Positions 16,874 to 60,159 of a stretch of 64,000 nucleotides of DNA are shown in pieces. Position 1 is the stretch's first letter; the number at the start of each line of letters is the position of its first letter. The stretch spans positions 11,569,832 through 11,633,831 of the forward strand of contig CM119264.1 in NCBI GenBank assembly GCA_051294375.1, in the 5' to 3' direction. The notes under the pieces were generated by a model that was given only the letters and a program-made list of their open reading frames with translations, did no database searches and was not told the DNA's origin. This DNA is from Paraspadella gotoi. Taxonomy: Eukaryota > Animalia > Chaetognatha. Position numbers and translations under genes: made by a program.

Positions 16874-17214
16874 CTCATGACCGGGCGGAGGGGTTTGCGA
16901 AAAGGATGGATTGATTTATTGATCGATCGGTTTTATTTTTTTTCTTTCGTTTTCTTTTTTTTTACTTTTCTTTAAAAAAAAAATAATATTCTTAATTGTT
17001 ATTTGATTAATTAATCGTTATGTTTTATCTCTCTTTTCGTTGTATTTTTGTAATTAATGAAAAACGACAATTTTAATGGCTTTAACAACGATTGTTCAAA
17101 AAAAAAAAATCATTAAAATTGTCGTTTTTCATTGATTAATCTTGACTTAATCTTTACTAAGGACGAGGACTGCAATCTCTTCACAATCACGAAGATTGAA
17201 GAACTTGACCCACA

Positions 17215-17400
17215 AACAATTTGACAAACACAATTTGACAAATTTGACAAATTTGACAAATTTGACAAATTTGACAAATTTGACAAATTGACAAATTGAC
17301 AAATTTGACAAATTTGACAAATTTGACAAATTTGACAAACACAATTTGACAAACACAAACACAAACAACTTGACCNNNNNNNNNNTTGACCCACAAACAA
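17215..17400. repeat. Intronic 9-bp tandem repeat (TTTGACAAA)n with a 10-N gap
   Basis: Read directly from the sequence. The unit is a near-palindrome (reverse complement TTTGTCAAA). Confidence 0.9.
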
Positions 17401-17413
17401 TTTGCTCTCCTAC

Positions 17414-17614
17414 CCGAATTCAGATGGCATCCGGCGACCCGAGGGCTTTCGCATCTTTCCGACACTCGGTCCCAATGCAGCCAACCCGGGCACCACATCG
17501 TCGTCAGCCTCTGAGAGGGCGTCTCGAAAAATTCGCAGACGAAATACGCGCTGCAGTCTGGGTGGGGAAAGGTTTCGCCATCGTAGTTGCAGGACGGGAG
17601 ATAAGGCGGACGAG
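17414..17614 (-). CDS. Exon 2: chitin-binding type 2 (CBM14/peritrophin-A) domain
   Basis: Translates as RPPYLPSCNYDGETFPHPDCSAYFVCEFFETPSQRLTTMWCPGWLHWDRVSERCESPRVAGCHLNS, with 6 Cys and the HPDCxxYFxC...CPxxLxWD....C pattern. Acceptor AATCAG|, donor |GTAGGA, 201 nt, phase 1-1. Confidence 0.88.
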
Positions 17615-17929
17615 CTGATTCGAGAATGAGACAAGTTGAGAAGGCAAGTTAGAAAATTATATTTGTTGTATCTCGACTCGGTTCTTTCTCTTCTTTATTT
17701 GCGCCGCGAGTACTCGCGGGCAAAAAAATGTTTTTTAGCCATGTCATGTCATGTCATATCATGTGATTAAAAGGGAAATACACGTCAAAATAATGTCACT
17801 GCGGCGCAACTCATTGGAATTACCGTTTTTGTTTTTTAAAAAAAAATAGTTTTTTAAAAAAATTCTTCTTAAATTTTACACAGCAATATTTTTACAGGGT
17901 AAATTGAAAAATGATTAAATACTACTCAC

Positions 17930-23285: not shown

Positions 23286-23579
23286 CGCTTAGTTTTTCTC
23301 GAAATTATTTCTAGTCCACATTGGAAACCACAACTTTATAGATAATACAGAAAAACATAAATTTATAAAAAATGTTAGTAACATTGACATCCAATCGGAA
23401 GTAACATATGCAGAGTCCAGGCAAAATCAATCCTTTGTAAGAAATGATTAGATTTTCAGATGACAATTTGGGGAGCAGAGAAAAATGATTCCAATCGGAA
23501 AGAATCGAGACTCGCAAACGTGGGGGTGTGGCGGTATATTCACACCGCCTCACGTCCACCATCCTTCAGCCAAATCCAT

Positions 23580-23797
23580 TGGCTCAGAGGGGGAACTCAC
23601 CATCCCAGGCGTAGTGTTCCATCCACAGTCCTAACGATTTCCATCTGCGTTGGCAAAGCGAGACCGTCCTAGGGTAACTGTGCCAGTGACTGGAGGCGTC
23701 ACTGAGGGTCGGAAGCCCCCAAAGCCAACAGTGAGATGCCCCATCCCAATGGGCATCACAGGCAACCCGGCTGTTGCCATAGGGGACACTTTTTTTT
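23580..23797 (+). mobile_element. SINE-like element: tRNA-like head, twister-like ribozyme core, 3' hairpins and oligo-T
   Basis: A-box-like TGGCTCAGAGG (23580-90); B-box-like GTTCCATCC (23616-24); core 23649-23729; hairpins GATGCC/GGCATC and GGCAAC/GTTGCC; T8 at 23790-97. Homologous in layout to 37668-37870(-). Confidence 0.55.
23649..23729 (+). ncRNA. Candidate type-P5 twister ribozyme
   Basis: GUUGGC-AAA-GCGA-GA-CCG-UCCUAGGG-U^AA-CUGU-GC-CAGUGAC-uggaggc-GUCACUG-AGGG-UCGGAAGC-CCCC-AAA-GCCAAC follows the twister order P5, P2', GA+T1, P1, UAA, P2, GC, P3, P4/L4, P5'. L4 CGG can pair with CCG and L4 GC with GC. Confidence 0.6.
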
Positions 23798-24803
23798 GTG
23801 GAAAGGGGGGGATTCAGAGAACAGCGCGTTGGATAAGTTCGGATGAAATGATACCATGGGAAAGTCGATTGCGAGAATTTGCTGAAGGCAACAACCAGGG
23901 CTTCTTTCATATTTAAGGACTCTGCCCTTGGCTCGGTCTTTGATTCCCCACTCGATTCAGATGCGACGCTTCTTTTCTTTTTCTTTCATTCGCAACTCTT
24001 TATTGGCATTTAAGTTAATTTATCGTCTTAAATGATTAAATGAAACAGAATTACGTTGGACTGAGGGCGGAGTGATGTAGAATTTACAACTGTTGCAGCA
24101 GTGGTGCGTCGAGCGCCTTTTATCGGTGGAGACTGGAGAGGGTTAAAGCTTTTTGCTCTGAATATCCCGTCTTGTTTTTTCACTTTTTCAACGTTGATGT
24201 CAAAACAGAATTGAAATCCGAAAGAATAAAAAAAAATTGAAAAANNNNNNNNNNNNNNNNNNNNNNNNNNNNNNNNNNNNNNNNNNNNNNNNNNNNNNNN
24301 NNNNNNNNNNNNNNNNNNNNNNNNNNNNNNNNNNNNNNNNNNNNNNNNNNNNNNNNNNNNNNNNNNNNNNNNNNNNNNNNNNNNNNNNNNNNNNNNNNNN
24401 NNNNNNNNNNNNNNNNNNNNNNNNNNNNNNNNNNNNNNNNNNNNNNNNNNNNNNTCTCTCCCCGATCGAGTCTTTCGTTGTCGAAGGGGCGAGAATCGAG
24501 TGACCGCGAAAATGAAGTGGAAACCTCATTCTCTGCTTACATAATACATTCCGCTTCGTCTCCGTCCTCTTTACATAATACATCGGGGTTGTGATGAAGA
24601 GCCACGCTTCGTTTCAAGAGAGAGAGAGAGAGGGAGAGGGAGAGACAGAGAGAGCGAGATGGAGAAAAAGAGAAAGAGACTAGTCTAGGAACTGGATTCT
24701 TTTCACATGGAAATTCGTTGAAGGGAGAATGAAAAAAACGAGGAATAAAAAACCGAGAGGGACAGGCTCGAAAACCTGTCTTGTATTCTCTCTCTCTCTC
24801 TTA

Positions 24804-33615: not shown

Positions 33616-33864
33616 ATGAAAAAGCCTTTTGCCCTTATATTCTTGCTCCTTTTCGCCCTTCCTGAGTATTACTTCCCGACCCGATACTTACCCTCGTCCT
33701 TACTCTACAACTCCCGAATTCAGTCCACCGCCTTACGCTTCGAATCCCCGACGATTCGATCCCCAGTTTACGAACCCGCTGCTGCTGTTGCGGCGCCCGT
33801 GGCGCCAGCGTCGTCAGCGTCGGCGCCCGCCACTCTCGAGGCTTTCCGGTTATCATTATGCTAA
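33616..33864 (+). other. Unverified 82-aa ORF with a signal-peptide-like N-terminus
   Basis: MKKPFALIFLLLFALP has a basic n-region and hydrophobic core, followed by a Ser/Pro/Ala-rich body. No domain recognised. Confidence 0.2.
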
Positions 33865-34023
33865 TCGCGGAGCAGTTATAGAAGTTATCGTCGAGTTATG
33901 GCCTAATAATCGGGCGCCCGCTTCTTTTTTTCCTTCTAATCCTTTTTCTTCTTGTCCCTCTCATGTTTTTTCTTTGGTTGGTCGACGGAGGAAGCGAAGC
34001 GCTAATGGAACCAAGTGTCTCTC

Positions 34024-34123
<100 letters not shown>

Positions 34124-35212
34124 CTCCTCTCTTCGCGGAGAATAACGAGTAGTTCGGTCGTGGCGACATCGGCGGCGGAATTGATTCTTATTCTTAACAT
34201 AACAATTAATCAACCGTTCCTCTCTCTACCGAAAGTTTATCCCGGATGTAATTGGGAATCGATCGATTCTTCTGAAACGAGTTTGCTCTTTTGCTATTCT
34301 CGTTAAAAGACGCGATTGGGAAGAAGCTTTAAACCCCCCCTCCCAAAAAAAAGAAGAAATAATAACGACAACAGCACACATTTCTTTCCCCAATATGATT
34401 CGACAACTTTAGCCCCATAGAGTCGCTTTCAGGCCTACTTACTCTCCGCATAAAGGCGACTCGAATCGTAATTCCCCCGTGAGCGCCATTCCGATGCTAA
34501 TCTATTGTTTTTCCGTCCTCGGATCTTCGGGCAGAAACTTTTTTTTCTTTTCAAACTTATTTTTTTTCTTTTCTGGAGAACGTTACTGTCGCTGAGTTGT
34601 TCTTCTTTTTGCCTCCAGTTTCGAATTCTTTCTCAATTGTTTGCTGCGCCCATGGTGTCTCCCTTTCAACAGCTTTTAGGATTTGTTGCTTGCCTTCGCT
34701 CAGGGGTTGCTATGACATTTTTCAGTTTGGAATTTCATCAGTTTTTCCCTTAAAAACTTTCGTTTCTCAAATTTATCTAGTTTTTCAATTTTTCCCCTCG
34801 TTTTTTTCTCTCTTTGTTTTCTCTGCTTCCACCGTTTTATCTTTCCAATTTTCTATTTCGCTTCCTCTCTCAAGACTTTTCTATTTCGCTTCCACTCTCA
34901 AGACTTTTCTATTTCTCTTCTTCTCTCAAGACCTAACTTTCCTTTCACCCAAAAAATCTTCTTGGCGTCGAGGAGATTCGAGGAATTAAGAGAGAGAAAA
35001 CTTGGAAAATAGAAAAGAAATAACTTCGGGATTTGAGCTCGAGCAGGGAATATCAATGGCCGAGCGCGTGACGGAATGACGCGAGATTGACGGAGCGTTG
35101 TGACGCTAGAGTGACGCGGTTTGCCGCGAGTAGGGGAGCAGCGCCATATTATTCTTTTTCACGCTCGACGCCGCGGGCATTCCTAACGATCTCTCGCTGC
35201 TCTCTACCCACC

Positions 35213-35266
<54 letters not shown>

Positions 35267-36856
35267 CTCTCTCTCTCTCTTTCTCTCTATTCTCTATCTC
35301 TCTCTCTCTCGATGCTCAACTGTTCTAAAAAAAAAAGAGAGAGAAAAACAGAGAGAGAAAGAGAAAGAGAGAAAGAGCGTTGAAACGATGAGAATAATAT
35401 GCATCTACAATGGTCTGGGGACCACTTGCCGTTCCGGGACGAGAGAGAGATAGAGAGGGGTAAGAAAATATGGAGAAGAGGGAGACACGCGTACAAGGGG
35501 TGAAAAGAGGAAGAAGTGGCGAGAGGGCGAGAGGGTGAGAAGGTGAAAGGGAGGTAACGTGAAAAATAAAGAGAGAAAGGGAGGAGAGGATTTCTCCCTT
35601 AAACCCCCCCCCCAAAAAAAGGAAAAATAAAACAAGTTAAGGAAGCTTCTCGCTTTCCAGGAATTATCGCTCGGGGATCGAAGCGCAGAAACGAGAAAAT
35701 ACTTATCGAGCCTCAGCCGAAAAAAAAAGACAAAAAAAGGGGTTCCTAAAAACGTTCGGAAAAAAAAAAGAAAAAAGAAAAATGTCCAAAAACGCGGAGA
35801 AAAAAAAAGCGGGGAAATATCGCCCCGCGAAGAATTGAATAGGAATTGCGTTGGATTTAGAAAGAAGAGAGATAAAAAAAATAATAGCGGCGAGCGAGAG
35901 GGACAGAAAAAAATCGGGCGAAGATTTTTGTCCTTCTAAGTTCGATATGTTTGTTTTCTAACTTGCTACGTTAAAGTTTTAATAAAAACTTCTTTACATA
36001 TCATATCATGTTTTTCATTACCAAAGGTAGAAATTGTCTTACCTGAGATTTCCGCGGCGATTGGTAGGAGAGAGAAAGTGGGAGAAGAAAAATACATGAT
36101 TTAAATTAGCATGTTAAAAAATTACACGGATTATCAGAGAAAATAAGAAATGATGTCCTTAGATAATTATGATCTTTTTTATTTTTTGGCGTACACGTTA
36201 TCAAAATCCCGCGCTTTTAGCTGTCGATTAATTTTTTCTTTTCGAAACGTACTCTGCCGTTATCAGTACTTTCGATCGTTTCTCCGCTCAAATTGAAAAT
36301 TGTAATACGAGAAAGTTTATCCTAAGAGTTTTAAGTTTTAAGCTTTAATTTTTGAGTTTACGATGTTTTTCTCCGAAGAGCCCCGAATTCTTCTACAACG
36401 ACGACGATGATAGCGACGAAAAGCGGCGCCCGGATCGAATCTTGGCGACGCCGATTTCGCCCCGAAGGCTCGAACGGCGCCCTCGCGTTTTCGCGAAAGA
36501 GAAACACGTGCGAACTCGCCTACTTTGATTATCGGGGTTCGTTTTTCTCGAGTTAGACATGTAATAATCGTGTAAGGGGTCGCTTAAAGCGAGAGCCATA
36601 ATCAAGTTATTCATATTCATAATCTAGTAACAATTTTGTAAAGAGAAAAGATCACGCAAACGTTTCCTTACTCCTTAAACCCGAAAAGGGTCGTCTTGTT
36701 AAATTAAGTGTCGGACGTAACCGTCGACGACCGCGCCACCGATCTTCGAGTTTTTCACCGGAAGTGAGAATGAGGTTCAGCGCCCCCTCCCCGGCGTCGT
36801 CGTCGCCGAGTCCGACGCCAGACAATAATTTCAATCTAAATTCTAAAAAAACGGGT

Positions 36857-36912
<56 letters not shown>

Positions 36913-37391
36913 AGGAAGAGAAGGAAAAAAAAAACAGAAGCTCGCCTTTTTCCCCGGTGTCTTAAATTCTTTGTTCCCATTTTTTCGTTCCTCTTTTCTC
37001 TTCCGTCTCATTAACTCGAATCTTTTTTTCCACTAAAATTCGTAGCCAGAGAAGAAAAAAAAAAAAAAGCCGCCGACAAAGAAGTTTAAAAGAGATATAA
37101 TAGCGGTGATAAAAAGGATTTAAAACAGTCCCTTCTCATTCTTGCTCTCTATCTTTTTGTTTTTTTTTTCGTTGGGTTTGGAACCGGAAAATGTCAGGAA
37201 AATTTAATCTCGTTTGCATACGGAAGAAAGAAACTCTGCCAAACGGAGGAGCGAACCTAATTATACGTTATCAATTAGAGAAAAGATGCAGGCTGAGAAA
37301 AAAACAAAAAATCAGAGGGGGAATTAGAATGTAAAAATAAGGAAATGTAAAAGGATACGTAATTTCGATAGATTTAAATCTGTCGGGTCAG

Positions 37392-40356
37392 GAAGTCTCG
37401 CGCAATCGCGTCAACGCTCTCTACGACACCATGATCAACTTGGTGTCCGGCTGCGCGGGCGGCGCCGTCAACGTCATCACGGGACAACCTCTCGACACGG
37501 CCAAGACCAAACTCCAAATCTACCCCAAATACTATCGAGGAACGACCCACTGTTTGAAGGAGACTTACTGGAAAGAAGGCTACAAGGGAATTTACTGCGG
37601 TCTTACTCCCAATTTGATGGTGAGGCGTTTTCGATCTTTTTTCTTTCAAATTTAATCGTATAGGAACGGGGAGACGTGTGATGCCTGGGGCGTGAGGCAT
37701 CTCCCGACAGCTGGCGCTCAGGGCTTCGGACCTGCAGTGACAACCCCATGTCTCTGGCATGTTGATTGTTTATGCCGACAGCCTAACACCATCACCCTTC
37801 ACCAGCGTGACCGTGAGGGGATTGAACCCTTGGGTAACGAGTACTAAACTGACCAAGCCAACGGGACGAGCGGAGATTCATTACGTTACACGGGAGGCGT
37901 TTTATAATTTGAGCTGATCTTCTACAGGTGGTCTTGCTAGAGAGCACCGTTCTGTTCATCTTGTATCCCTGGATGCAACGAAAACTCGCCAAAAATTTGG
38001 GAATTTCCGTGGAAGAGTTAACGCCTTTACACAAGGCCGGGGCTGGTAAGGATAGACTTGCCATGAATTACGAAGTTGAACTTTTTTGCAATAAGTCTCG
38101 GTGGTCGAGATTAATTAAACTAGTAATTGAAAGTAAAACCGACAATACAGTAACGTTTACAATGTGGACATCAAAGTTGAAAAGAGCATCTACAACACCT
38201 TGGCGTCTTTCTTGTCGAGCGCCATCTCTTGACGAGGCGTTTAAAATGAAGCGACGTCTTTTGTCGTCTGATCTTTTGTCCGCCATTTTTTAACGTCGTT
38301 GGTCTCTTCTCATTTTTTTTCTAGCTCCTCACTCTCCTCTATTCATCTCTCATCTCTCTCTCCCTCTGTCTTTCTCTCTCTCTCTTCTCTTTCTCTCAAT
38401 CATCACTACACTCACTCTACTCTCTCTCTCTCTATCTCTCTCCCTTTCTCTCTTCTCTCCTCTCCAACTTCTCTCTACTCACCTTTCTCCCCTCTCTCTC
38501 TTCTATCCCTAACTCTCGGCACTCACTCACCACTCCTCCTTCCTCTCTCTCCTATCATCTCTCTCTCTCTCTCCCTTCTTTATCTCTCCCTTTCCTACTC
38601 TCTACCCACTCTATCCACTCTTTCAGCTCTCTCGACATCACATTCTCTCACTCTCTTTCTCCCTCTCTCTCTCCGCTCAATCTCTCGATCCTCTACTCTC
38701 TCTCCTCTCTGCCAACTACACTCAGTCACTCAGATTTCACTCCTCCTATCGCTTTTTCTGTCCTTCGTCCTCTTCCTCCCACCTCCTTCCATCAATCTTG
38801 GAACACGCTGGAGACAAAAGGAGAAAAAAGTGAAAAAAAAGGAAAAAAAAAAGGACAAGTGGAAAAAAAGGAAAAATATAAAAGTCGGTCCACGAATGTC
38901 AAAGAGAGAGAGAGAGAGAGGCAAGGAGAGAGAGAAAGAGAGAGAGAGACAGAGAGAGAGGAGAGAGAGAGAATAACTAGTCACAAAGAAGAGGCAAATG
39001 AGATCTCAGGCCAAGAATCATTAAAAGACAATTCTTTTCTCCATAAGTTGACCCGAGGAGGAAAAAGTCATTTTTAAATCACGCAGAGACAATTTTTATT
39101 TAACTGCTGATCTGCCCATCGTACCAGTAGTTGTAATTTGTTTTAAAACCACTGTAGTTTTAAAACTTTGTTTAAATAGTTTCTTAAATTGATATTCTAA
39201 GATACGTCAACCTTATAATTTCGGTCACGATATATTTAGCTAACTATAAATAAATAATAAATCTAGTCTTCCCCCTTCCTTTCTCTCCTCTCTCTCTCTT
39301 CTCGTCTTCTTCCTTTCCGTGCGCTGCTCTCTCTGCCTTCTCTGTCCCCGTCTTCTCTCTTGTATCTCTGTCCGTATTTCCCCTCTCCTCTCTCCCTCTC
39401 TCTTTTCGTGCTCTCTCTCTCTTTCAGGGCAGCTTGTCGTCGGGTGGCTTCGCCCTTGCGATGACTCCCGCCGAAGTCGTCAAATGTAGAATACAAGTTA
39501 TGAGAGAGACCTGTGTCTTCAAAGGTGAGTTTTTTGAAAGAGTAAGAAAAGATTAAGGTAAGTCAGGCCTTTGACTTTCCCAGATCGATTCCTCGCGGAC
39601 GCGAATCCTCCGATCCGTCGATTCGTCCGCGAACTCGTCCGCGTCGAAGGATGGAGGACGCTCTTTAAGGGGATGGACGCCGCCGTCGCCAGAGACGTCG
39701 TCGGCGGCTTCTTCTACTTTGGCGTCTACGAGGCCGTGCTTAAGGTGTGTCTTAATGACGGTTGGCCTTTTAGAGACCTATAAGAGGCCAAGATGTTAAA
39801 GGGGACATCGTGGTGGGTCTATTTAAGATCAAACTGCCAAAGACGCTCTTCTGTTGAGAGAATAAGATATGATAGGCCAAGTTGAGTAAGTCGTGTGTCT
39901 TCCGAGCTGCTAGAAAATTCACTGTGGCAGATATTCTATTCATTTCGAAGCCAGATTGGTCAGTCCTGCAATCTTGCATTCATGCAATCAAAACTCGACA
40001 CCACAGCTACTGTGTCCACCGGGACAGAGAAGGGAAGAAGTGACTCACTTCAACATCNNNNNNNNNNGGCATTGAGATTTCAGGCAAGAATCTTAAAAGA
40101 CAATTCTTTCTCCATAAGTTGACCCGAGGAGGAAAAAGTCATTTTTAAATCACGCGGAGAATTTTTATTTACTGCTATCTCCCATCTCCACTAGTTGTAT
40201 TGTTTTAAAACACTGTAGTTTTAAAACACTGTAGTTTAACGTTTTTAAAAAAGATATTTGTATAATTTGAAATTCTAGGAATTAAGCGTCAACATAAATA
40301 AATAATAATCCTAGTTTCTTCCCCCCTTTCTCTCTCTCTCTCTCTCCGTTTATTAT

Positions 40357-40449
<93 letters not shown>

Positions 40450-41582
40450 ACTCACCCGAAACGACGTCGAAACGGAAAGGAGGTGATCCACATGGCGACG
40501 CCGCCCGCTCCGCGAGCGACGAAGATGTTGAATAGTGAGTCACTTCTTCCCTTCTCTGTCCCGGGTGGACACAGTACTGTCGGTGTCGAGTTTTTTGTAA
40601 TTGCATGAATGCCAAGATTGCAGGACTGACCAATCTGGCTTCGAAATGAATAGAATATCTGCACAGTGAATTTTCTAGCAGCTCGGGAAGACACACGACT
40701 TACTCAACTTGGCCCGATTCATATTTTATTCATCTCAACAGAAAGAGCTCCGTCTTGGCAGTTCTGACTTATTAAATAGACCCACACCGATGTTCCCCTT
40801 TAACATTTCTTGGCTCTTTATAGGCCTCTAAAGGCCAACCTGCCTCATTCAAGACACACCTTTAAGCACGGCCTCGTAGACGCCATAGTAGAAGAAGGCC
40901 GCCGACGACCGTCTCTGGCGACGGCGGCGTCCCATCCCTTAAAGAGCGTCCTCCATCCTTCGACGCGGACGACGTTTCGCGGACGAATCGACGGATCGGA
41001 GATTCGCGTCGCGATCGGAATCGATTCTGGGAAGTCAAAGGCCTGACTTACCTTTAATCTTTTCTTACTCTTTCAAAAACTCACCTTTGAGACACAGGTC
41101 TCTCTCATAACTTGCTATTTCTACAATTTGACGACTTCGGCGGGAGTCATCGCATAGGGCGAAGCCCACCGACGGACAAGCTTGCCTGAGAGAGAGAGAG
41201 AGAGAAGAGAGAGATGACGAGAGAGAGGAGAGAGGAGAGAGAGAGAGAGAGAGAAGGAGGAAAGGGGAAGAAACTAGGATTTATTATTTATTATGTGACG
41301 CTAATTCTAGAATTTCAAAATTATACCCAAAATATCTTTTTTTTAAAAAACGTTAAAACTAAGTGCTTTTAAAAACTAACAGGTGTTTTTAAAACAATTA
41401 CAAACTAGTGGAGATGGGATAGGGATTAGCCAGTAAATAAAAATTCTCCGCGTGATTTAAAAATGACTTTTTCTCTGCGGGTCAACTTATGTGAGAAAGA
41501 ATTGTCTTTTAAGATTCTTGCCTGAAATCTTCAATGCCTCTCTTTGACTTTATTCTCTTCTCTCTCTTCTCTTTCTCTCTCT

Positions 41583-41655
<73 letters not shown>

Positions 41656-43557
41656 TTGACATTCGTGGACCGACTTTTTATTGGTTTTCCTTTTTTTTCC
41701 ACTTTCTTTTCTTTTTTTCCTTTTTTTTCACTTTTTTCTCTTTTGTCTCCGCGTGTGCCAAGATTGATGGATAGAGGGGGGAGGGAAGAACGAAGGACGA
41801 AAAAAGCGATAGAGAGTGAATGAGACTGAGTGTGTTGAGAAGAGAGAGAGATGAAGAGAGAGAGGAGAGAGGAGAGAGAGATGAGAGAGAAGAGAGAAGT
41901 GAGAGAGAGAGAGATAGAGAAAGAGGAGAGAGAGAGTGATGTGAGATGAGTGGAGTGAGGTGAGAGAGTAGAGGAGAGAGAGAGAGAGAGGAGAGAGAGA
42001 AGAGAGAGAAGAGAGAGAGAGAGGAGAGAGAAGGAGGAGAGGAGAGAGAGAGATGAGAGGAAAGAGAGAGAGAGAGAAAAGAGAGAGAGATGATGGGAGC
42101 TAGAAAAAAAATGAAGATAGAGACAACGACTGTTAAAAAATGGCGGACAAAGATCAGACGACAAAAGACGTCGGTTCATTTAAACGCACTTCGTCAGAGA
42201 TGGCGCTCAGACAAGAAAGACGCCCAGGTGTTGTAAGATGCTCTTTTCAACTTTTGCATGTCCACATTTGATAAACGTTTTACTGCTTATTGTCGGTTTT
42301 ACTTTCAAATTACTAGTTTAATTAATCTTCGATCCACCGAGACTTTATTGCAAAAAAGTTTTCAACTTTCGTAATTTCATGGCAAGTCTATCCTTACCAG
42401 CCCGGCCTTTGTGTAAAAGGGCGTTAACTCTTCACGGAAATTCCCAAATTTTTGGCGAGTTTTCGTTGCATCCAGGGCATACAAGAAATTGAACAGAACG
42501 GTGCTCTCTAGGCAAGACCACCTGTAGAAGATCAGCTCAATATTATAAAACGCCTCCCGTGTAACGTAATGAATCTCCTGTCTCGTCCCGTTGGCTTGGT
42601 TCAGTTTAGTACTCGTTTTACCCAAGGTTCAATCCCTCACGGTCACTGCTGCGTGAAGGGTGATGGTGTTAGGCGTTTCGGCATAAACAATCAACATGCC
42701 AGAGGACATTGGGGTTGTCACTGCTAGGTCCGAAGCCCTGAGCGCCAGCTGTCGGGGAGATGCCTCAACGCCCCAGGCATCACACGTCTCCCGTATACCT
42801 ATACGATTAAATTTGAAAGGAAAAAAGATCGAAACGTCTCACCAATCAAATGAGTAAGACCGCAGTAAATTCCCTTGTAGCCTTCTTTCCAGTAAGTCTC
42901 TTTCAAACAGTGGGTCGTTCCTCGATAGTATTTGGGGTAGATTTGGAGTTTGGTCTTGGCCGTGTCGAGAGGTTGTCCCGTGATGACGTTTGACGGCGCC
43001 GCCCGCGCAGCCGCCGACACCAAGTTGATCATTGGGTCTAGAGGAGCGTTGACGCGATTGCGCGAGAACTTCCTGACCCGACAGATTTAAATCTATCGAA
43101 ATTACGTATCCTTTTACATTTCCTTATTTTTTACATCTAATTCCCCCTCTGAATTTCTTTGTTTTTTTCTCAGCCTGCATCTATTTCTCTAATTGATAAC
43201 GTATAATTAGTTCGCTCCCTCCGTTTGGCCCAGAGTTCTTTTCCTTCGTATGCAAACGAGATTTTAAATTTTTCCTGAATTTTTCCAGGTTCCAAACCAA
43301 CCGAAAAAAAACAAAAAGATAGAGAGCAAGAATGAGAAGGGACTGTTTTTTTAAATCCTTTTTATCACCGCTATTATATCTCTTTTTAAACTTCTTTGTC
43401 GGCGGCCTTTTTTTTTTTTTCTTCTCTTGGCCTACGAATTTTAGTGGAAATAAAAGATTTCGAGTTAATTGAGACGGAATTAGACGAAAAGAGGAACGAA
43501 AAATGGGAACAAAGAATTTAAGACACCGGGGAAAAAAGGCGAGCTTCTGTTTTTCTC

Positions 43558-43615
<58 letters not shown>

Positions 43616-46600
43616 ACCCGTTTTTTTAGAATTTAGATTGAAATTATTGCTCTTGGCGTCGGACTCGCCGACGGACGACGCGGGAGGGGCGCTGAATACC
43701 TCATTTCTCACTTCCGCGTGAAAAACTCCGAAGATTCCGGGGCGCGCGTCGTCGACGGTTACGTCCGACACTTAATTTAACAAAAGACGACCCTTTTTCG
43801 CGGTTTAAGGAGTAAAGGAAACGTTTTGCGTTGAATCTTTTCTCTTTACAAAATTGTTACGAGATTATGAATATGAATAACGTTTGATAGTGGCTCTCGC
43901 CTTTAAGCGACCCCTTACAACGATTATTACTATGTCCTAACTCGAGAAAAAACGAACCCCGATAATCAAAGTTAGGCGAGTTCGCATCGTGTTTCTCTTT
44001 CGCGAAAACGCGAGGGCGCCGTTCGAGGCCTTCGGGGCGAAATCGGCGTCGCCAAGATTCGATCCGGGCGCCGCTTCGTCGCTATCATCGTCGTCGTTTG
44101 TAGAAGAATTTAGGGCTCTTCGCGAGAAAAACATCGTAAACTCAAAATTTTAAAGCTTAAAATTTAAAACTCTTAGGATAAACTTTCTCGTATTTACAAT
44201 TTCAATTTGAGCGGAGAAACGATCGTGAAAGTACTGATAACGGCCAGAGTACGTTTTCGTAAAAGAAAAAATTAATCGACAGCTAAAAGCGCGGGGATTT
44301 GATAACGTGCTGTACGCAAAAAATGAAAAAGATCATAATTTATCTAAGGACATTCATTTCATTATTTTCTCTATAAGTCCGTGTAATTTTTTAACATTGT
44401 CTAATTTTAAATCATGTATTTTTCTTCTCCCACTTTCTCTCTCCTACCAATCGCCGCGGGAAATCTCAGCGTTAAGACAATTTCTACCTTTGGTAAAATG
44501 AAAAACATTGATATTTGATATGTAAAGAAGTTTTTATTAAAACTTTAACGTAGCAAGTTAGAAAACAAACATATTCGATACTTAGAAGGACAAAAATCTT
44601 CGCCGATTTTTTTCTTGTCCCTCTCGCTCGCCGCTATTATTTTTTTTATCTCACTCTTTCTAAATCCAAACGCAATTCCTATTCAATTCTTCGCCCCCCC
44701 CAGGGCGATATTTCCCCGCTTTTTTTTTCTCCGCGTTTTGGACATTTTTCTTTTTTCTTTTTTTCTCCGAACGCTTTTTTAGGAACCCCTTTTTTTGTCT
44801 TTTTTTTTTCGGCTGAGGCTCGCAATAAGTATTTTCTCGTTTTTCCTGCCTTCGATCCCCGAGCGATAATTCTGGAAAGCGAGAAGCTTCCTTAACTTGT
44901 TTTATTTTTCCTTTTTTTGGGGGGGGGGTTTAAGGGAGAAATCCTACTCCTGCCCTTTCTCTCTTTATTTTTCACGTTACCTCCCTTTCACCTTCTCACC
45001 TCTCGCCCTCTCGCCCACTTTCTTCCTCTTTTCACCCCTTGTACGCGTGTCTCCCTTCTCCATATTTTCTTACCCCTCTCTATCTCTCTCTCGTCCCGCG
45101 CAACGGCAAGTGCGTCCCCAGACCATTGTAGCATGCATATTATTCTCATTCGTTTCAACGCTCTTTCTCTTCTTTTTCTCTTTTCTCTCTCTGGTTTTTC
45201 TCTCTGTTATTTTTTAGAACAGCTTTGAGCATCGAGAAGAGAGAATAGAGAATAAGAGAGGTAGAGATAGAGAGAGAGAGAGATGAAGCAGAGAACGGAT
45301 GAGAGAGAGACGATGAGAGAGAGAGAGAGAGGAGCAGAGAGATGAGAGAAGGGGAAAGAAAGGAGGAAGGGGGGGGGGGGGGTAAGAGCAGGCGAGAGAT
45401 CGTTAGGAATGCCCGCGGCGGTCGAGCGTTGTAAAAGAATAATATGGCGGCTTCCCCTCCGCCTCAAACCGCGTCACTCTAGCGCTCACAACGCTCCGTC
45501 AATCTCGCGTCATTCCGTCACGCGCTCGGCCCATTGATATTCCCTGCGTCTGAGCTCCAAATCCCGAAAGTTATTTCTTTTTCTATTTTTTTCCAAGTTT
45601 TCTCTCTCTTAATTCCTCGAATCTCTCGACGCCAAGAAGATTTTTTGGGTTTGAAAGGAAAGTTAGGTCTTTGAGAGAAGAAGAAGAAATAGAAAAAGTC
45701 TTGATAGTGGAAGCGAAATAAGAAAAGTCTTGAGAGAGGAAGCGAAATAGAAAATTGGAAAGAATAGAAACGCGTTGGAAGCCAGAGAAAACAAAGAGAG
45801 AAAAAAACGAGGCGGAAAAAATTGAAAAACTAGATAAATTTTGAGAAACGAAATTTTTAAGGGAAAAACTGATTGAAATTTCCAAACTGAAAATGTCATA
45901 GCCAACCCACTGCAAGGCGGAAGGCAAGCAACAAATCCTAAAAGGCTGTTTGAAAGGCGGAGACACCCGTATGGGCCGCAGCAAACCAATTGAGAAGAAT
46001 TCGAAACTGGTAGGGCAAAAAGAAGAACAATCTCTAGCGAAGTAACCTTCTCAGAAAAGAAAAAAAAAATAAGTTTGAAAAGATAAAAAAAAGTTTCTGC
46101 CCGCAAGATTCCGAGGAGGAAAAAAAACAATTGATTAGCATCGAATGCGCGCTCACGGTGGCGGAATTACGATTTTCGAGTCGCCTTTATGCCGAGAGTA
46201 ATAGGCTCTGAAAGCGACTCTATGGGGCTAAAGTTGTCGAAATCATATGGGGAAAGAAATGCTGTGCTGTTGTCGTTATTATTCTTCTTTTTTTGGGAGG
46301 GCGGGGTTTTTAAAGCTTCTTCCCCAAATCGCGTCTTTTAACGAGAATTAAGCAAAAGGGAGCAAAACTCGTTCAGAAGACATTCGAATCCGATTCCCAA
46401 TTACATCCGGGATAAACTTTCGGTAGAGAGAGAACGGTTGTTTGAATTAATTTGTAAGAATAAGATCAAATTCCGCCGCCGATGTCGCCACGACCGATAC
46501 TTACTCTTATTCTCCGGCGAAGATGAGGAGGACGACGACGACGACGACGACGACGACGACTTACGACACGACGACGACGTACGAGACGTACGACGACGAG

Positions 46601-47452
46601 GAGAGAGACACTTGGTTCCATTAGCGCTTACGCTTTCCTACCGTCGACCAACAAAGAAAAAACATGAGTAGGGACAAGAAGGAAAAAGCGATTAGAAGCG
46701 AAAAAAATAGAAGCGGGGCCCGATTATTAGGCCACTAACTCGACGATAACTTCTATAACTGCCTCCGCGATTTAGCATAATGATAACCGGAAAGCCCGAG
46801 AGTGCGCGGGCACCGACGCTTGACGTACTGCTGGCGCCACGGTGCGCCGCCCAACAGCAGCAGCAGGTTCGTAATAACTATCTCTCTCTTTTTNNNNNNN
46901 NNNNNNNNNNNNNNNNNNAGAGGGAGTCCGAAATCCAATTCTGATGACGAGACATAACAGCGAGAAGAGAAATTTCGGCGTCGGGAGATTTTGTAAATTA
47001 TGTTTTCAATTTTGGTGACGTCGTTGAAGACATTTATCTTATGGCGACGGAAGGCTTCCCCGAGCGGGCGGCGAAACGGGGGGGGGGACGGCGTGAGTGG
47101 GAAGGATACCCCTGTTGACTCATTTCGTCCTCAATGCTATCTTGCATTTGAATCCCACCGCTCGGCGAACTTTACGATTTAGGATTTTTTATAATTTATT
47201 TACTCTCTTCGTCGTTTCGTTTCAATGGCGCTTGGTTTAACTTAAAAGAGCTCCGACTTCAGTCGTCCTCGTTCTTTTTTTTTTGTTTTTTTTTTTTTCA
47301 TGTGTGTCCTTAACCTTTCGAACTTTTTCAGCATTTCCCAACCGCAGATAGGTTTTATTATCCAGAATTTTTTATCGTGTTTTCAGAGGGAGCCTGACTT
47401 TGCCTCTATCGGTGTTGCATTGTACTTATTTATTCATCATCTATCTCTTCTT

Positions 47453-47483
<31 letters not shown>

Positions 47484-48491
47484 TTCGTTCTCTCTCTCCC
47501 TCATCTCTCTCTCTCTCTCTCTCACATCTCTCTTCTGCATCCATTCTCCCACTACGCCGTCTTCCACAGGCGCGGATGCAAAACAAGACGACGAAAAAGG
47601 GAACTAAGGGGAAATGGGGTTTAGCGATGGCGCGCGCAATTTATTCGTCGGAGGGAGTCTCCGCCCTGTGGAGCGGGATTCGGCCGATCCTGATCAGGTG
47701 GGTGAAGCATCAGGTGGAGAAGGGAACCGAGGTTCAGGCGGGAATCGGGGATTCAGGCGGAGGACAAGATCATGTTGGGATGGGAAGGGGATTAGGCTGG
47801 TAAGTGGATTGTTGGGATTTATACGGGGAGACAGAAAGGTAAGGGGCGGAGACTAGGATCGAGCGAGGAATTAGTCGTATTAGATTAGAGTAAAAACTTT
47901 TCAATGATGATTAAAGTTAAAATTGCCGAAAATTTTAGTAAATAGTTATGAATTTTTGAAAAAAAAATAAAATGTTTACAAACAACGATTTTATTTTAAA
48001 AAATAGACAAGTTTCGGCTTTGATACAAGCCTTCTTCAGCCCAAAACAGAAAAAACCCTTGCCATTTCAATCTGAAATGAAAGAAATGAAGGAATTTTAT
48101 CGGAGGAACTAATGAATGTAATCATTCGTTTATAATTCAGTTAAATTCACCTTTTTATAATTTTTTTTCATAATAAAATAGAAGTAAAATTGATATATAG
48201 CTATTAAGGCGGGCCAAAATTGATCACTTTTTATCATTAAGAGTTCTGTAATATAAAATTCATTTGTTCATCATATACTTAATCAATATTTAACTAGTGA
48301 AGCACAGTATAACATTAAAGCGTTATTAATATTATTAATAGCTATATCTATAACCTATATCTGTCTTTCTCAGGACCATCCCAGGCTGCGGTCTCTTCTT
48401 CGTCGTCTACGAAAGCCTTCGATCGAACCTTCGGAATTTCTTCCTCGATCCCGAACCAAACCTCAAAGAGTTCGTCGATAAGAGACATTGA
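37392..48491 (+). CDS. SLC25 mitochondrial carrier, ornithine/basic amino acid carrier (SLC25A15/A29/A45)-like; spliced gene
   Basis: Exons: 37392 (ATG 37431)-37619 (LVSGCAGGAVNVITGQPLDTAKTKLQ...KEGYKGIYCGLTPNL); 37928-38045; 39428-39524 (TPAEVVKCRIQ, 1-nt slip); 39584-39744 (EGWRTLFKGMDAAVARDVVGGFFYFGVYE); ~40007-gap (complete only in the inverted copy, 40456-40576: GGVAMWITSFPFDVV); 47570-47697 (ARMQ...EGVSALWSGIRPILIR); 48374-48491 (TIPGCGLFFVVYE...*). The Px[DE]xxKxR/K carrier signature is clear in repeats 1 and 2 and partial in repeat 3. Splice sites are GT-AG with consistent phases where the sequence is clean. Confidence 0.9.
37668..37870 (-). mobile_element. Intronic SINE-like element: tRNA-like head plus twister-like core (second family member)
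   Basis: On - strand: TGGCTTGGTCAGTTTAG (weak A-box-like), GGTTCAATCCC (B box), then GCUGGU-GAA-GGGU-GA-UGG-UGUU...AACA-AUCAACAU-GC-CAGAGAC...GUCACUG-CAGG-UCCGAAGC-CCUG-AGC-GCCAGC, then GAGAUGCC...GGCAUCACA as in 23733-23760. Confidence 0.6.
40068..46893 (-). other. Indel-rich inverted duplicate of ~33768-40057, probably a long-read gap-fill or misassembly artefact
   Basis: 40456-46874 is the reverse complement of 33768-40057, extended to the end of carrier exon 5, with scattered 1-nt indels. It is bounded by N gaps (40058-67 and 46894-918). 40068-40445 is a third, forward copy of ~38993-39420 joined through a (CT)n tract. Confidence 0.85.
47990..48045 (-). mobile_element. Penelope-like element terminal remnant with a minimal type I hammerhead ribozyme
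   Basis: Minus strand reads GGG-CTGAAGA-A-GGCTT-gtatca-AAGCC-GAAAC-TT-GTC. The core is intact, stem II has 5 bp, stem III is minimal and the triplet is GUC, followed by AATAAA (47995-47990). Stem I pairs poorly. Confidence 0.7.
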
Positions 48492-53904: not shown

Positions 53905-55444
53905 GGTTAATTGAATCGTAAACCGGTTTCAGCGACCAAACAGCGGCGGAGGCAGAGGCGACCCAATTCTGGTGAAAAACAAATGGGGAGACTGAGATCT
54001 CTCGCGAGAAATGGATGGAGAGATAAAAGCGAAGAAAGGGAAATGCGAAACAGTTTATTATAACTTGTTTATAATCTTAACTAATACCTAATTTCTCGGT
54101 TTGTTTTGATTCCGCAAACAAGAGGATCGTCGATTTAATTTTCATTGAAGAAGTAGAAGAACAGGAAGGTGAACAATTCTGGGTCAAGACGACGACGACG
54201 ACTCGGCGATGAGGGAGAATCGAGGGTAATTTACCTTCCGAAGAAAAGGTCGACGACAGAAGGGGTCGCGGGGAGGTTGACCCTCTGTCGAAGCGGGCCG
54301 TGGGATCAGTGACACCTTAAAAAGGGTGATCACTGATCAGTTCTGAGGAAGAAAAGCTATGGTCACTATTGGTTGGACCAAGTTCTGGCCAATTTTTCGG
54401 GCCATATACTATGCAAAACCTACGAGCCGAATTTTTAAATTAAAACTTCCATAACAGCATGACATAACTGAAGAATCTTCGAATTGTAAAAAAATGTTTG
54501 AGTTCAAGGGAAAAACCTAGTTTTACGCAACCGAGACTGGTTTTGAATTTCGGGTGTCAAAATTAATGATAATTTTAATCTGAGATTTGATTTTAAAAGA
54601 ATTTTGGAATTTTTTTCGGAATGAAATTATCGGAATCATTATGCTTTTCTTTTTTTTCGATCGCTTGCCTTTCTTGCACTGCGAGTGCGGCTCAAAAAAA
54701 GGCCAATATGGCATCAGAGGTAAGGACTGCAAATTTTATTGGCAGCCTTCTTTGATCTAAATTCTAGATTAATTCCAAAACAAAACTGATTTTTATGTAA
54801 AGCGAATATATTTTGTAATATGCACAATATGCACACTAAGAACAATTTTTTTCTTCGACAATTTTCAGCCCAGCCTCAGTACGTCGACAACCACCGAAAT
54901 AAACCTAACCAAACAAAATCCACAAGCAGCTTCCAGTTTTAACTGAATTCTGTTTTATTTCACGTAATTTTAAGTCTTTTTAATCCGAAAAAAATTTTAC
55001 TGTCGCTCTATCAATAAATGACGTATTTAGTCACTAGAAATACAATCGGATTAATAATTTATTTCGAAAATTTTAAAATTCTCAATTATTAAATAATTGA
55101 TAAAACCCAGTTGAAACGAGCTGCTTAGGGGAGGAAAACAAAACAGCATCGTCGAATCAGACTTTGTTCGGACAATCGGACAATCAGACGTCGCTTTGCG
55201 GAAAAGTCGAAGACAAGCATCGACGAAAGAAAAGATTGGTTCAAAGGTTGGTCAATTAAAGTTCAAACAATTGAACAGTGAACACCCAATACCCTTTACA
55301 GTTCTCACAGCTAATTGATTGTCGGCCTGAAACCTAAACAAAATACGTAGCAATTGAAGCGATACCATGAAAAACAAAACAACACAAAAGGTCTGATCAC
55401 TACCTTTCCCGACCGCCAACATTTCCCCCGCTCTTTTTCCCAAG

Positions 55445-56240
55445 ATTCGCTCCAACCCTCGCCAATTCTGGCCAATTTCCGTGGCTCGTGTCACTTGGAA
55501 GTCTCGAGTTCGACGTCGATCTCGGCGTCATCGCGTGGCGCCATCTTTGTGGCGGCGCAATCATCGGGCCGCGACACGTCTTAACGGCGGGTCATTGCGC
55601 GTCGGAAGTGACGTCGGCGAGGGCGTCTGCGACGGACTTAAATGATGACGACCCTCGCTCACGAATCCTCAACTTGACGACGCGCTACAGACATCCACAG
55701 TTTCGGCGCACGTCGCGCGGCGTCTTCCACGACATCGCAGTCGTAATCGTCAACGCCACCTTCGCCTTCGACGAACTCGTGGCGCCGATTTGTCTCCCGG
55801 CGCTCGACGCCGAATTCGTGGAGAACGAAATGTTCGAGTTCGCCGGTTGGGGGCGCGCGTGGTCCGCTTCGGGATGGGAGAAGAGAGGAGAGGGTTCGGC
55901 TTCCTCCGCCGAGGCTTCATCACTTTATCCGTCCAAACTCCGATGGTCCCGTCTGCCTTTCGTGCCAGAGTCTATCTGTAAAAGATCGATGGCGCGATGG
56001 GGCGTCGGCTGGGGCGCCGTCTTCTGCGCCGGACACACGCGGCGCCGGCCGAGAGACGCGGCCTTGTGCGCCGGCGATTCAGGATCCCCGCTGGCGCGGC
56101 GAAACGAAGCGGGATGCTGGGAGGTGGTGGGCGTGTCAGCGTGGGGTCATCCGGGTTGCGCGCGCCGGCCCGCGGTCTTCGTCGACGTGGCAAAGTACGT
56201 ATTTTGGATCGAGTCGGTCGTCGACCAAAAGACGTCTTGA
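55445..56240 (+). CDS. S1A (chymotrypsin-family) serine protease; catalytic domain in a single terminal exon
   Basis: GQFPWLVSL..HLCGGAIIGPRHVLTAGHC (His), HDIAV (Asp), PICLP, AGWG, CAGDSGSPL (Ser), VVGVSAWG..GC...PAVFVDVAKYVFWI. There is no in-frame ATG upstream. Likely acceptor CTCTTTTTCCCAAG| at 55444; upstream exon(s) not resolved. Confidence 0.93.
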
Positions 56241-58965: not shown

Positions 58966-59904
58966 GTTTTCTAACTGGGCTTGCGTGCGAGTGTGGTCGA
59001 TGTGCGTTCACAGTTGCGCAGGTGCGACAAATGTTGAGTGGGGCTTTAGTGAGGGAGAGAGAGAGAGTGAGGTTGTGATATAAAGTGATGGGGAGAGGAA
59101 GGAAAGGAAATAGGAAGGCGACGGTCCGATGATTTGGGAAGATAATTTCCAGCCGTCTGTTTTGCGTCGACGACGACGATAACGACATCGACGTCCAAAA
59201 CAGGAAAGTCGCGACAAAATAAATAGAAAATTTTAGAAATCACCGGCAGAACGGCTGCTGCGGCCGTTTTAGTAACACTGTTGTTTTTAGAAACTTTCCT
59301 TCGAATACTCGCAGAATTCTTTCTCACTTTGTGGAATAACGAAGGAGATGAAATTAAATTCGGTGATTGAATTCGCTTTTTAAATTAAGAAACAGAAACA
59401 AACTCATAAAAATAGAAACTTAGAATTTTTTTTTTTTTCAAAACAATTTTCGCGGTGGAATCGTTTCACTTTCCGGTTCTCAATTATCAACGAGATTCAA
59501 GGGCCGGAAATTAGTTCGGATTCAGCGATGATTTTCTGTCTCGACAGATGGCGTCTTTACCGGCGCCGGAGCGGCCTATCGGTTTCCACGGCACGCCCCT
59601 CATTCGGCACCCCTCATTGGCTAGCTCTCCACCCATCGGTCCCTCCAATCGCTCGCCGATTAAAACCCCCCAAAACCCCCTTTCAAAATCCCTCCTGGGG
59701 GCTCCACCTTATCTTCGCTTCCAATTTTAACCATTCATGAAGACGACTAAACCCAATTACGAGAGATAAAACCGCACATTATCCACATCAGGGGCCTCAT
59801 CCGACTTTGAAAAAAAGGGGTGAATGGGGAGAAGGGGTGAATGGCGTTTTGCAGATTGGAGATGGCGGAGAAACAGACTTAGGGATGTGGAGGGAGGGAG
59901 TGGT

Positions 59905-60078
59905 GAGCGGCGGAGCGGCAGAGCAGTGGAGCGGCGGAGCGCCGAAGCGGTGGAGCGGCGGAGCGCCGAAGCGGTGGAGCGGTGGAGCGGCGGAGCGCCG
60001 AAGCGGTGGAGCGGTGGAGCGGCGGAGCGGTGGAGCGGCGGAGCGGTGGAGCGGCGGAGCGGTGGAGCGGCGGAGCGG
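59905..60078. repeat. G-rich 8-bp-based tandem repeat (GGAGCGGC/GGAGCGGT) with interspersed GCCGAAGC variants
   Basis: Read directly from the sequence. Confidence 0.9.
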
Positions 60079-60159
60079 TCCATCCCGAGAAACGAAACTC
60101 TGGTTTTTTTTCCCTCGCCGCCGTGATGGATGGCCTATCGCCCGAATCCCAATCGTCTC

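What the first reader, a model, noticed from the sequence alone, without database searches (positions are those of the whole stretch)
37668..37870. Second, strongly diverged copy of the tRNA-head plus twister-like element shows compensatory changes in three helices
Seen on - strand, inside the carrier-gene intron after exon 37392-37619. The order of parts matches copy 1 at low sequence identity, but pairing is kept: P5 GCUGGU/GCCAGC vs GUUGGC/GCCAAC; P4 CAGG/CCUG vs (A)GGG/CCC(C); pseudoknot CCG:UGG vs CGG:CCG. P1 is longer (UGUU/AACA). Invariant blocks are UGCCAG, GUCACUG, GAAGCCC and a downstream GAGAUGCC-loop-GGCAUCACA hairpin. The B box GGTTCAATCCC is canonical. Inference: RNA structure has been conserved across two subfamilies, and the 3' hairpin may be the signal recognised by a partner reverse transcriptase. 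The cleavage-site region reads AUCAACAU rather than UAA, so activity is uncertain. Being antisense, it would not cut the host pre-mRNA. The copy at ~42585-42790 belongs to the inverted duplicate and is not independent.
Basis: partly seen in the sequence, partly recalled or inferred. Interest (0 to 1): 0.8.

Follow-up and report, generated by a model that had tools for sequence, protein, structure and literature searches.

The report
Decayed twister-ribozyme solo LTR in intron
This intronic repeat is a damaged copy of a very abundant animal repeat family whose tRNA-like part is followed by a conserved twister-type RNA fold; the fixed ends and 4-base target sites of its relatives make it likely the leftover end (solo LTR) of a small retrotransposon rather than a SINE, and intact relatives are predicted to cut their own RNA, possibly as pairs.

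Summary
The observation largely holds. Window 37659-37890 (-) and 23527-23781 (+) share the layout of a P5-permuted twister with a P3 arm. One pair each in P5, T1, P4 and the 3' hairpin is swapped on both sides.

Two details are wrong. The 'long P1' and the 'AUCAACAU' site come from insertions of about 8 and 7 nt that related contigs lack. Relatives read UAA, preceded by a self-complementary 8-mer. This copy is therefore likely dead.

The SINE/LINE reading is not supported. Copy 1's family has sharp TG...TA ends, a 4-bp duplication, an ATAT target preference and no tail; this copy's relatives share that 3' end. Best reading: solo LTRs of Helenus-like Pol III TRIMs whose twister likely cuts out a unit-length RNA, as in plant retrozymes. 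No two-LTR element, PBS or cleavage was shown here.

The scan reported this system before on other DNA of this genome. Two published wasp Helenus LTRs carry an unremarked hammerhead core at the same position.

The parts
37659..37890 (-). Copy 2: whole unit, 232 nt, decayed solo-LTR-like repeat (family B)
   Evidence: 3' end: long relatives align from 37659 and loose ends show the shared terminus. 5' end inferred from the depth fall near 37880-37906, a TGTAA start and 1 RNA-run contig in register. Flanks CCCG / CGAT give no duplication.
37849..37860 (-). A-box-like motif of the tRNA-like part
   Evidence: Sequence, offset 31 in the unit; promoter function inferred
37818..37828 (-). Canonical B box; about 11 nt upstream of it are lost relative to relatives
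   Evidence: loose ends behind 37829 in 18, 13 and 17 contigs of X3, X7, X8
37710..37806 (-). P5-permuted twister fold with P3 arm: P5 37806-37801/37715-37710, P2' 37797-37794, GA 37793-37792, T1' 37791-37789, GCC 37758-37756, P3 37755-37750/37741-37736, P4 37734-37731/37722-37719, L4 37730-37723
   Evidence: order compared with the Rfam P1 consensus, a real P1 twister in L001 and Table 1 of PMC8501958
37781..37788 (-). About 8-nt insertion absent from related contigs (register ambiguous by a few bases)
   Evidence: tables 4, 5c and 7
37773..37780 (-). Self-complementary 8-mer in place of a looped P1 helix
   Evidence: self-duplex -9.5 kcal/mol against +2.9 for a 2-bp hairpin
37770..37772 (-). 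UAA in the family register; predicted cut between 37772 and 37771 in intact relatives
37761..37767 (-). 7-nt insertion splitting the 5' strand of P2, absent from related contigs
   Evidence: table 4 (7 left out at 37760: 3, 1 and 4 contigs in X3, X7, X8) and table 7
37680..37701 (-). Conserved 7-bp hairpin after the twister, with one pair swapped on both sides
37392..37619 (+). Host exon, mitochondrial carrier (SLC25-type)
   Evidence: Pfam PF00153; X9 contig covers 37391-37618
37620..37927 (+). Host intron, 308 nt, of which 232 are the element in antisense; spliced out
   Evidence: Joint in 1 contig of X9 at depth 98.7
23527..23781 (+). Copy 1 (family A): 255-nt unit, TGTGGC...GCCATA, flanked by GGGG/GGGG. 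A box 23580-23590, B-like box from 23616, twister 23649-23729, palindrome 23667-23674, UAA 23675-23677, hairpins 23735-23757 and 23761-23778
42560..42803 (+). Indel-rich duplicate of copy 2 inside a 5-kb inverted repeat; likely an assembly artefact

Best explanation
This is a damaged copy of an abundant repeat that carries a tRNA-like part followed by a twister-type fold; it is likely a solo LTR of a non-coding, Helenus-like mini-retrotransposon (TRIM), and the twister of intact relatives is predicted to cut the element's own RNA.

Model:
1. RNA polymerase III would start at the A/B boxes in the 5' LTR and read through an internal region into the 3' LTR (inferred).
2. Each LTR's twister would cut at U^AA. 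The segment that should form P1 is a loopless self-complementary 8-mer, so two twisters likely pair to complete each other (inferred, about even odds).
3. The unit-length RNA, with 5'-OH and cyclic-phosphate ends, would be ligated to a circle, reverse-transcribed by a Gypsy-type partner and inserted by its integrase with a 4-bp duplication, preferring ATAT. The ends and target pattern are shown; the rest is inferred by analogy to plant retrozymes.
4. Solo units would arise by LTR-LTR recombination or short cDNAs.

This copy has two insertions in the catalytic core, about 11 nt lost from the head and several broken pairs. It is likely inactive and, being antisense, is spliced out with the intron.
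For: Twister layout
- All conserved blocks occur in permuted order in both copies.
- Using majority letters of related contigs, 31 of 33 pairs hold and 6 are swapped Watson-Crick pairs (P5, P2, T1 twice, P4, hairpin). 6 of 8 double changes keep pairing, p about 0.02 at 1/3 each.
- Most of copy 2's own substitutions revert to better pairing in relatives.
- In family A the only 2 variable positions (5% or more) of the 81-nt core fall in the 7-nt P3 loop, p about 0.006.

Ends
- Loose ends pile at 23527 and 23781: 138 and 170 contigs in X1, 130 and 180 in X5, 114 and 142 in X6, 31 and 37 in X9. Flanks are unrelated (agreement 0.40-0.46) with ATAT beside each end.
- Copy 1 has a perfect 4-bp duplication.
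- Family B shares the last 9 nt and the ATAT flank.
- Animal Helenus make 4-bp duplications (PMC10886601). TG..TA and TA..TA LTR ends are on record for plant Copia (PMC9804982 passages).

Palindrome
- The 8-mer is self-complementary in both families despite different sequence; 1.6% of window 8-mers are (995 of 62362).

Precedent
- Helenus-2_SyJa and -2_SyUm LTRs hold a hammerhead core about 30 nt behind their B box (read by eye).

Dead copy
Against: - No two-LTR element, PBS, PPT or partner retrotransposon was seen here; no genome was held. The only hint is 1 contig in X3 with a backward joint 37827 to 37697. Full elements are known to me only from unchecked notes.
- Copy 2 has no flanking duplication and its 5' end is inferred.
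- The right end is TA, not the canonical CA.
- Rfam scores are far below gathering.
- Thermodynamic folding of copy 1 supports only P5 and P3 (pair probabilities 0.84-1.0); P2 and P4 are at 0.07 or less (pseudoknots not modelled).
- Family A has A-C mismatches at one end of P2 and of P4, and a non-canonical B box.
- Pair registers were set by me from the twister template. The covariation rests on two families.
- No cleavage, Pol III transcription or circular RNA was tested.
Confidence: 0.7

Rival explanations
1. The units are LTRs with a twister that works as a monomer, with a 2-bp P1 closed by a 4-nt loop, and it only trims the transcript; or the fold is a conserved relic. No pairing of ribozymes and no circle is needed.
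For: P1 typically has at least two pairs, and inefficient cleavage occurs without it (PMC8501958 section 17). The outer two pairs of each 8-mer can form in cis. No circle or dimer was observed.
Against: The inner four bases are also self-complementary in both families. A 2-bp hairpin costs +2.7 and +2.9 kcal/mol against -11.0 and -9.5 for the duplex. One relative variant (4 contigs, X8) swaps the second pair and keeps the third, which leaves only a 2-nt loop in cis.
Confidence: 0.13
2. The unit is itself a short non-autonomous DNA transposon moved by a Ginger-type or similar DDE transposase, and the tRNA-like part and twister are passengers.
For: Sharp ends, a 6-bp imperfect inverted terminus, a 4-bp duplication and a TGTNR start in both copies. 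Ginger2 makes 4-bp duplications at AT-rich RTATAY sites (PMC2836005 passages). No paired LTRs were seen here.
Against: Ginger inverted repeats are 40-270 bp (Ginger1) or 50-180 bp (Ginger2); here 5 of 6 bases. A DNA transposon puts no selection on an RNA fold, yet pairing is kept between families.
Confidence: 0.1
3. A tRNA-derived SINE with a twister body taken from an RTE 5' end and a 3' hairpin bound by a LINE reverse transcriptase.
For: A and B boxes followed by a structured body; twisters occur at the 5' end of the RTE element Perere-3 (PMC8501958 abstract; PMC7761336 passage).
Against: The tRNA-like part is internal, both ends are fixed, the duplication is 4 bp, there is no A-rich or tandem tail, and 5' loose ends are about as frequent as 3' ones. 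RTE twisters are unpermuted and cut at the element's 5' end; here the cut site lies mid-unit.
Confidence: 0.07

Closest known systems
Helenus TRIMs / TRIMp3 (Kojima 2024, PMC10886601; text parts 1-4 of 6, a term search and supplement passages read)
   Same: tRNA-like A/B boxes inside a unit of LTR size, 4-bp duplication as in animal Helenus, solo copies, no coding capacity. Helenus-2_SyJa and -2_SyUm show a ribozyme core (hammerhead, by eye) just behind the B box.
   Different: A twister fold plus hairpin follows the boxes. None of the 14 AAGCCC hits in the supplement lies in a twister core (line breaks or variants could hide one). The right end is TA. The paper names no ribozyme in Helenus. 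PBS and PPT were not seen here.
Plant LTR retrozymes (Cervera 2016, PMC4918200; passages and Discussion read)
   Same: Self-cleaving motif inside an LTR-sized unit, 4-bp duplication, solo LTRs, predicted unit-length circle and Gypsy-type partner.
   Different: Animal host, twister instead of type III hammerhead, internal Pol III boxes, stunted palindromic P1. Circles are shown there and untested here.
Type-P5 twister ribozyme (Rfam RF02684, clan CL00120)
   Same: Permuted order with ends joined in P5; UAA, GCC, GU-NNN-AAGC, GA and both pseudoknots.
   Different: Has a P3 arm and a loopless 8-nt P1 segment. Scores 15.7 bits against gathering 37.6. This copy is disrupted.
Perere-3 (RTE) twister variants of Schistosoma mansoni (PMC8501958; abstract, sections 3, 17, 19 read)
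   Same: Twister in an animal retroelement, with a P3 arm and a reduced P1.
   Different: Unpermuted, at the 5' end of an autonomous non-LTR element, with P1 completed by host flank.
Dimer-cleaving minimal hammerheads of Penelope elements and amphibian retrozymes (PMC6765202 and PMC7229834 passages)
   Same: A stunted helix completed by pairing of two copies.
   Different: Different ribozyme class and non-LTR elements; dimer action is only predicted here.

Membership tests
Twister ribozyme (type P5) | Conserved blocks UAA, GC, GU...AAGC and catalytic GA in permuted order | tested here: met
   UAA in register in copy 1 and in copy 2's relatives
Twister ribozyme (type P5) | Helices P2, P4 and pseudoknots T1, T2 with covariation | tested here: met
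   31 of 33 pairs, 6 swapped, with majority letters; 29 of 33 and 4 swapped with the window's own letters. Two families only.
Twister ribozyme (type P5) | P1 helix next to the cut site | tested here: inconclusive
   Only 2 bp possible in cis; 8 bp between two molecules
Twister ribozyme (type P5) | Rfam gathering score | tested here: not met
   19 of 67.2 bits and 15.7 of 37.6 bits; the P5 model, as shown, has no P3 arm
Twister ribozyme (type P5) | Intact core in this copy (37710-37806) | tested here: not met
   Two insertions and broken P2 and P3 pairs
Twister ribozyme (type P5) | Self-cleavage at N^AA | not testable with these tools
   Needs an in vitro assay
Helenus / TRIMp3 | tRNA-like A and B boxes inside the terminal repeat | tested here: met
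   Offsets 31/64 and 54/90, spacing 33 and 36; family A B box is non-canonical; ARAGORN finds no tRNA gene
Helenus / TRIMp3 | 4-bp target duplication | tested here: met
   Copy 1 GGGG/GGGG; ATAT on both sides among relatives. Not met at copy 2 itself.
Helenus / TRIMp3 | TG...CA termini | tested here: inconclusive
   TG...TA; non-canonical ends are on record
Helenus / TRIMp3 | Two LTRs around an interior with PBS and PPT | not testable with these tools
   None in the window; no genome held; reported only in unchecked notes
LTR retrozyme | Unit-length circular RNA between the two ribozymes | not testable with these tools
   Only contigs were available; no raw RNA reads
tRNA-derived SINE | tRNA head at the 5' end, A-rich or tandem tail, variable-length duplication (features partly recalled) | tested here: not met
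Ginger DNA transposon | Terminal inverted repeats of 40-270 bp | tested here: not met
   5 of 6 bases only against PMC2836005

The most novel reading that the evidence does not exclude
Animal TRIMs with Pol III promoters have repeatedly recruited self-cleaving ribozymes right behind the B box: a twister in this genome (likely tens of thousands of LTR copies) and a hammerhead in gall-wasp Helenus. Here the twister is an obligate dimer, so that only a transcript with both LTRs cuts out a unit-length circle and solo LTRs stay harmless. This would be an animal, Pol III-driven, twister-based LTR retrozyme.
Probability: 0.35. Interest if true: 0.85.

Novelty: new variant of a known kind. Interest (0 to 1): 0.6.

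Why it matters
Twister ribozymes have had one retroelement role reported in the papers I saw: trimming the 5' end of RTE elements. LTR retrozymes are described for plants with hammerheads, and animal retrozymes are described as non-LTR. A twister kept under structural constraint in the ends of very abundant animal repeats would link Helenus and retrozymes into one design, give a natural dimer-dependent twister, and suggest how Pol III-driven TRIMs replicate without a long terminal redundancy. This copy matters as the diverged second family that shows the covariation, and as a warning that damage in a single copy misleads register calls. Searches found no paper describing the combination; Dfam, Repbase and SINEBase could not be searched, and most subscription papers are outside the library.

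Tried and rejected
- Whole-window Rfam scan: 47 matches, mostly microsatellite-driven, none at either copy. ARAGORN: 0 genes.
- No whole genome is held, so copy number, full elements, antisense bias and a partner element could not be searched.
- Pattern scans: viral contigs 0 hits. Metagenomes 3 hits: two of one unpermuted P1 twister and one chance match. Prokaryotic genomes about 170 hits against about 191 expected; 0 of the 120 fetched have the layout. No relative outside this organism was found, and these collections hold little animal DNA.
- Two protein searches to place the host clade returned nothing. The host is only 'likely an invertebrate animal' (introns; SRCR, CBM_14 and trypsin domains).
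- No RT or integrase domain among the 80 frames scanned, out of 282 that passed my filter plus 2 added.
- No RNA holder is on record. Run X9 is a guessed RNA run. Its higher depth over the 3' half of family A was not used, because contigs cannot show level or strand.
- Summed depth over the elements is about 2,500-4,800 times flank depth for copy 2's peak bin and about 15,000-65,000 times for copy 1. The tool says this is no copy number; I take it as order of magnitude only.
- No empty allele of the intron was seen in the 4 runs laid.
- One search had mis-indexed helices and was replaced; only its 8-mer test is used.
- Look-ups of earlier findings by sequence and nearby gave nothing.
- Copy 1's host context was not determined.

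Full report
Setting. The window is eukaryotic, rich in GA repeats and has N gaps. The finding lies antisense in intron 37620-37927 of a mitochondrial-carrier gene (Pfam PF00153). One contig of run X9 joins the flanking exons across 308 nt with GT..AG ends. Copy 1 lies at 23527-23781 (+). A third copy at about 42560-42803 sits in one arm of a 5-kb inverted repeat centred on a gap. That arm differs by 446 gap letters against 129 mismatches, with 9 gap letters in the 227 nt of exon aligned, and the listed contig variants over that exon show none of them (table 4 was cut by 16 rows). It is likely an artefact and is not counted.

Is the fold real? Whole-window cmscan finds nothing at either copy, and the elements fold no better than shuffles. 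Narrow scans give a twister family as best match for each copy, weakly. The parts occur in the order of a twister opened at P5: P5, A-rich linker, P2', GA, T1', an 8-nt segment, UAA, P2, GCC, P3, P4, GU-NNN-AAGC, P4', P5'. This is the circular permutation of the order in Table 1 of PMC8501958 and of a real P1 twister with a P3 arm found in L001 and L003 (61.2 bits). A sequence-only alignment places P5, T1, the inner three pairs of P4 and the 3' hairpin in the same columns. All 38 of 38 cells pair, 4 of 19 pairs are swapped on both sides, and slid controls show 0 swaps. With two rows the shuffle control is reached 34 of 500 times, so that test alone is not significant. A descriptor tuned on these copies gives 0 hits in 100 Markov controls and hits 0 of 120 loci preselected for the L4 motif.

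What relatives show. Laying contigs of four runs at 80% likeness gives peak depth 2,500-4,800 times the flank in the three DNA runs; copy 1 gives about 15,000-65,000 times in its three DNA runs. These figures are order of magnitude only. Majority letters of relatives mend most of copy 2's weak pairs, in T1, P3 and P2. With them 31 of 33 pairs hold between the families, 6 as swapped Watson-Crick pairs; with the window's own letters the figures are 29 of 33 and 4. The two exceptions are A-C at helix ends in family A. In family A the only 2 variable core positions listed lie in the P3 loop. Against this, ViennaRNA, which cannot model pseudoknots, supports only P5 and P3 in copy 1 and only P5 in copy 2.

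Loose ends and gaps show that relatives lack about 8 nt at 37781-37788 and 7 nt at 37761-37767 and have about 11 more nt in the head. Without the insertions UAA (37772-37770) stands in register, and the stretch between T1' and UAA is an 8-mer as in copy 1. The locus itself, insertions included, is present in other samples: an X3 contig covers 37712-38120 with 0 other letters and an X8 contig covers 37740-38022 with 4 and no gaps. The damage is therefore genomic. Either way this copy is likely inactive.

The P1 segment. Both 8-mers are fully self-complementary, G-U allowed, though different in sequence; 995 of 62362 window 8-mers are. In cis only 2 pairs can close a 4-nt loop (+2.7 and +2.9 kcal/mol); between two molecules the duplex is -11.0 and -9.5. 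Hammerheads with a stunted helix cleave as dimers (passages of PMC6765202 and PMC7229834). A monomer with a 2-bp P1 is not excluded. The dimer idea was in earlier notes that I saw before this test.

What kind of element? For copy 1, loose ends pile at 23527 and 23781 in all 4 runs, flanks are unrelated, and ATAT lies beside both ends. In the window the unit reads TGTGGC...GCCATA between GGGG and GGGG. Copy 2's relatives end in the same 9 nt followed by ATAT. Copy 2 spans 37659 to about 37890 and has no matching duplication. The tRNA-like boxes are internal and there is no tail. This excludes an ordinary SINE for family A and points to integrase insertion. Animal Helenus TRIMs have tRNA-like LTRs, 4-bp duplications, solo LTRs and Gypsy-like PBSs (PMC10886601 parts 1-4 of 6). 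Ginger transposons share the TGTNR start and 4-bp duplication but have 40-270 bp inverted repeats. I did not see a two-LTR element. Unchecked notes on this genome describe 639-745 nt elements with 413-488 nt units, which implies LTRs of about 221-264 nt and brackets the 232 and 255 nt measured here. Whether they are the same families could not be checked.

Mechanism. Shown: the layout and its covariation, the ends, the target pattern, high abundance, antisense intronic position and splicing. Inferred: Pol III transcription, cleavage, dimer action, ligation to a circle, and reverse transcription and integration by a Gypsy partner, following the retrozyme model (PMC4918200 Discussion). My rough odds: twister-derived fold 0.92, LTR-type end 0.8, active in intact relatives 0.7, dimer 0.5, circle 0.45, this copy inactive 0.85.

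Novelty. The Helenus paper never names twister and cites a ribozyme only in its references. None of 14 AAGCCC hits in its supplement sits in a twister core (the rest of the supplement was not read). The consensus LTRs of Helenus-2_SyJa and -2_SyUm hold, by eye, a type III hammerhead core about 30 nt behind the B box. That supports the design and shows it is not without precedent in deposited sequence. Searches gave no paper on a twister in LTRs or a dimeric twister; I saw listings for these and passages of PMC7761336, PMC5680766 and PMC6154101. Supplements of bioRxiv preprints, Repbase, Dfam and SINEBase were not available and may bear on this. Verdict: a new variant of a known kind, between Helenus TRIMs and LTR retrozymes, already noted by this scan on other DNA of the same genome. 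This locus is a decayed solo copy.

Noticed in passing
PMC10886601 supplement, Helenus-2_SyJa-LTR and Helenus-2_SyUm-LTR: A hammerhead core (type III order, GUC triplet, complementary loops I and II) lies about 30 nt behind the B box. It was read by eye, is not named in the paper's text, and was not scored with a model. The lead came from note e1-10418673.
   Followed up: partly
window 33768-46874: A 5-kb inverted duplicate centred on the gap at 40058-40067. One arm is indel-rich with a broken exon copy; it looks like a fold-back read artefact.
   Followed up: partly
L001:769-920 and L003:534-685: An unpermuted P1 twister with a P3 arm (61.2 bits) lies directly behind GC-rich hairpins with weak tRNA-Sec likeness (E 0.12) in two metagenome contigs.
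   Followed up: no
window 37789-37868 (run X9, record 31): A 1823-nt contig at depth 339 in the guessed RNA run carries a family B head near one end. It could be an mRNA with an inserted copy or a longer element.
   Followed up: no
window 16554-17648 (-) and 55371-56237 (+): SRCR and chitin-binding CBM_14 exons, and a trypsin domain in one long open frame.
   Followed up: no
window 47246-47800 (+): A further Mito_carr match (E 3e-5) beyond the inverted duplicate, possibly a later exon of the same carrier gene.
   Followed up: no
window 245-640 and 59881-60110: Tandem arrays: a 22-nt unit with a 66-nt higher-order period, and a GC-rich array of about 8-nt units.
   Followed up: no
window 23782-23812: Copy 1 sits in a GGGG target, unlike the family's ATAT preference, and is followed by a T run that could end a Pol III transcript. 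Runs X1 and X5 show 4 and 2 extra G at 23804.
   Followed up: no
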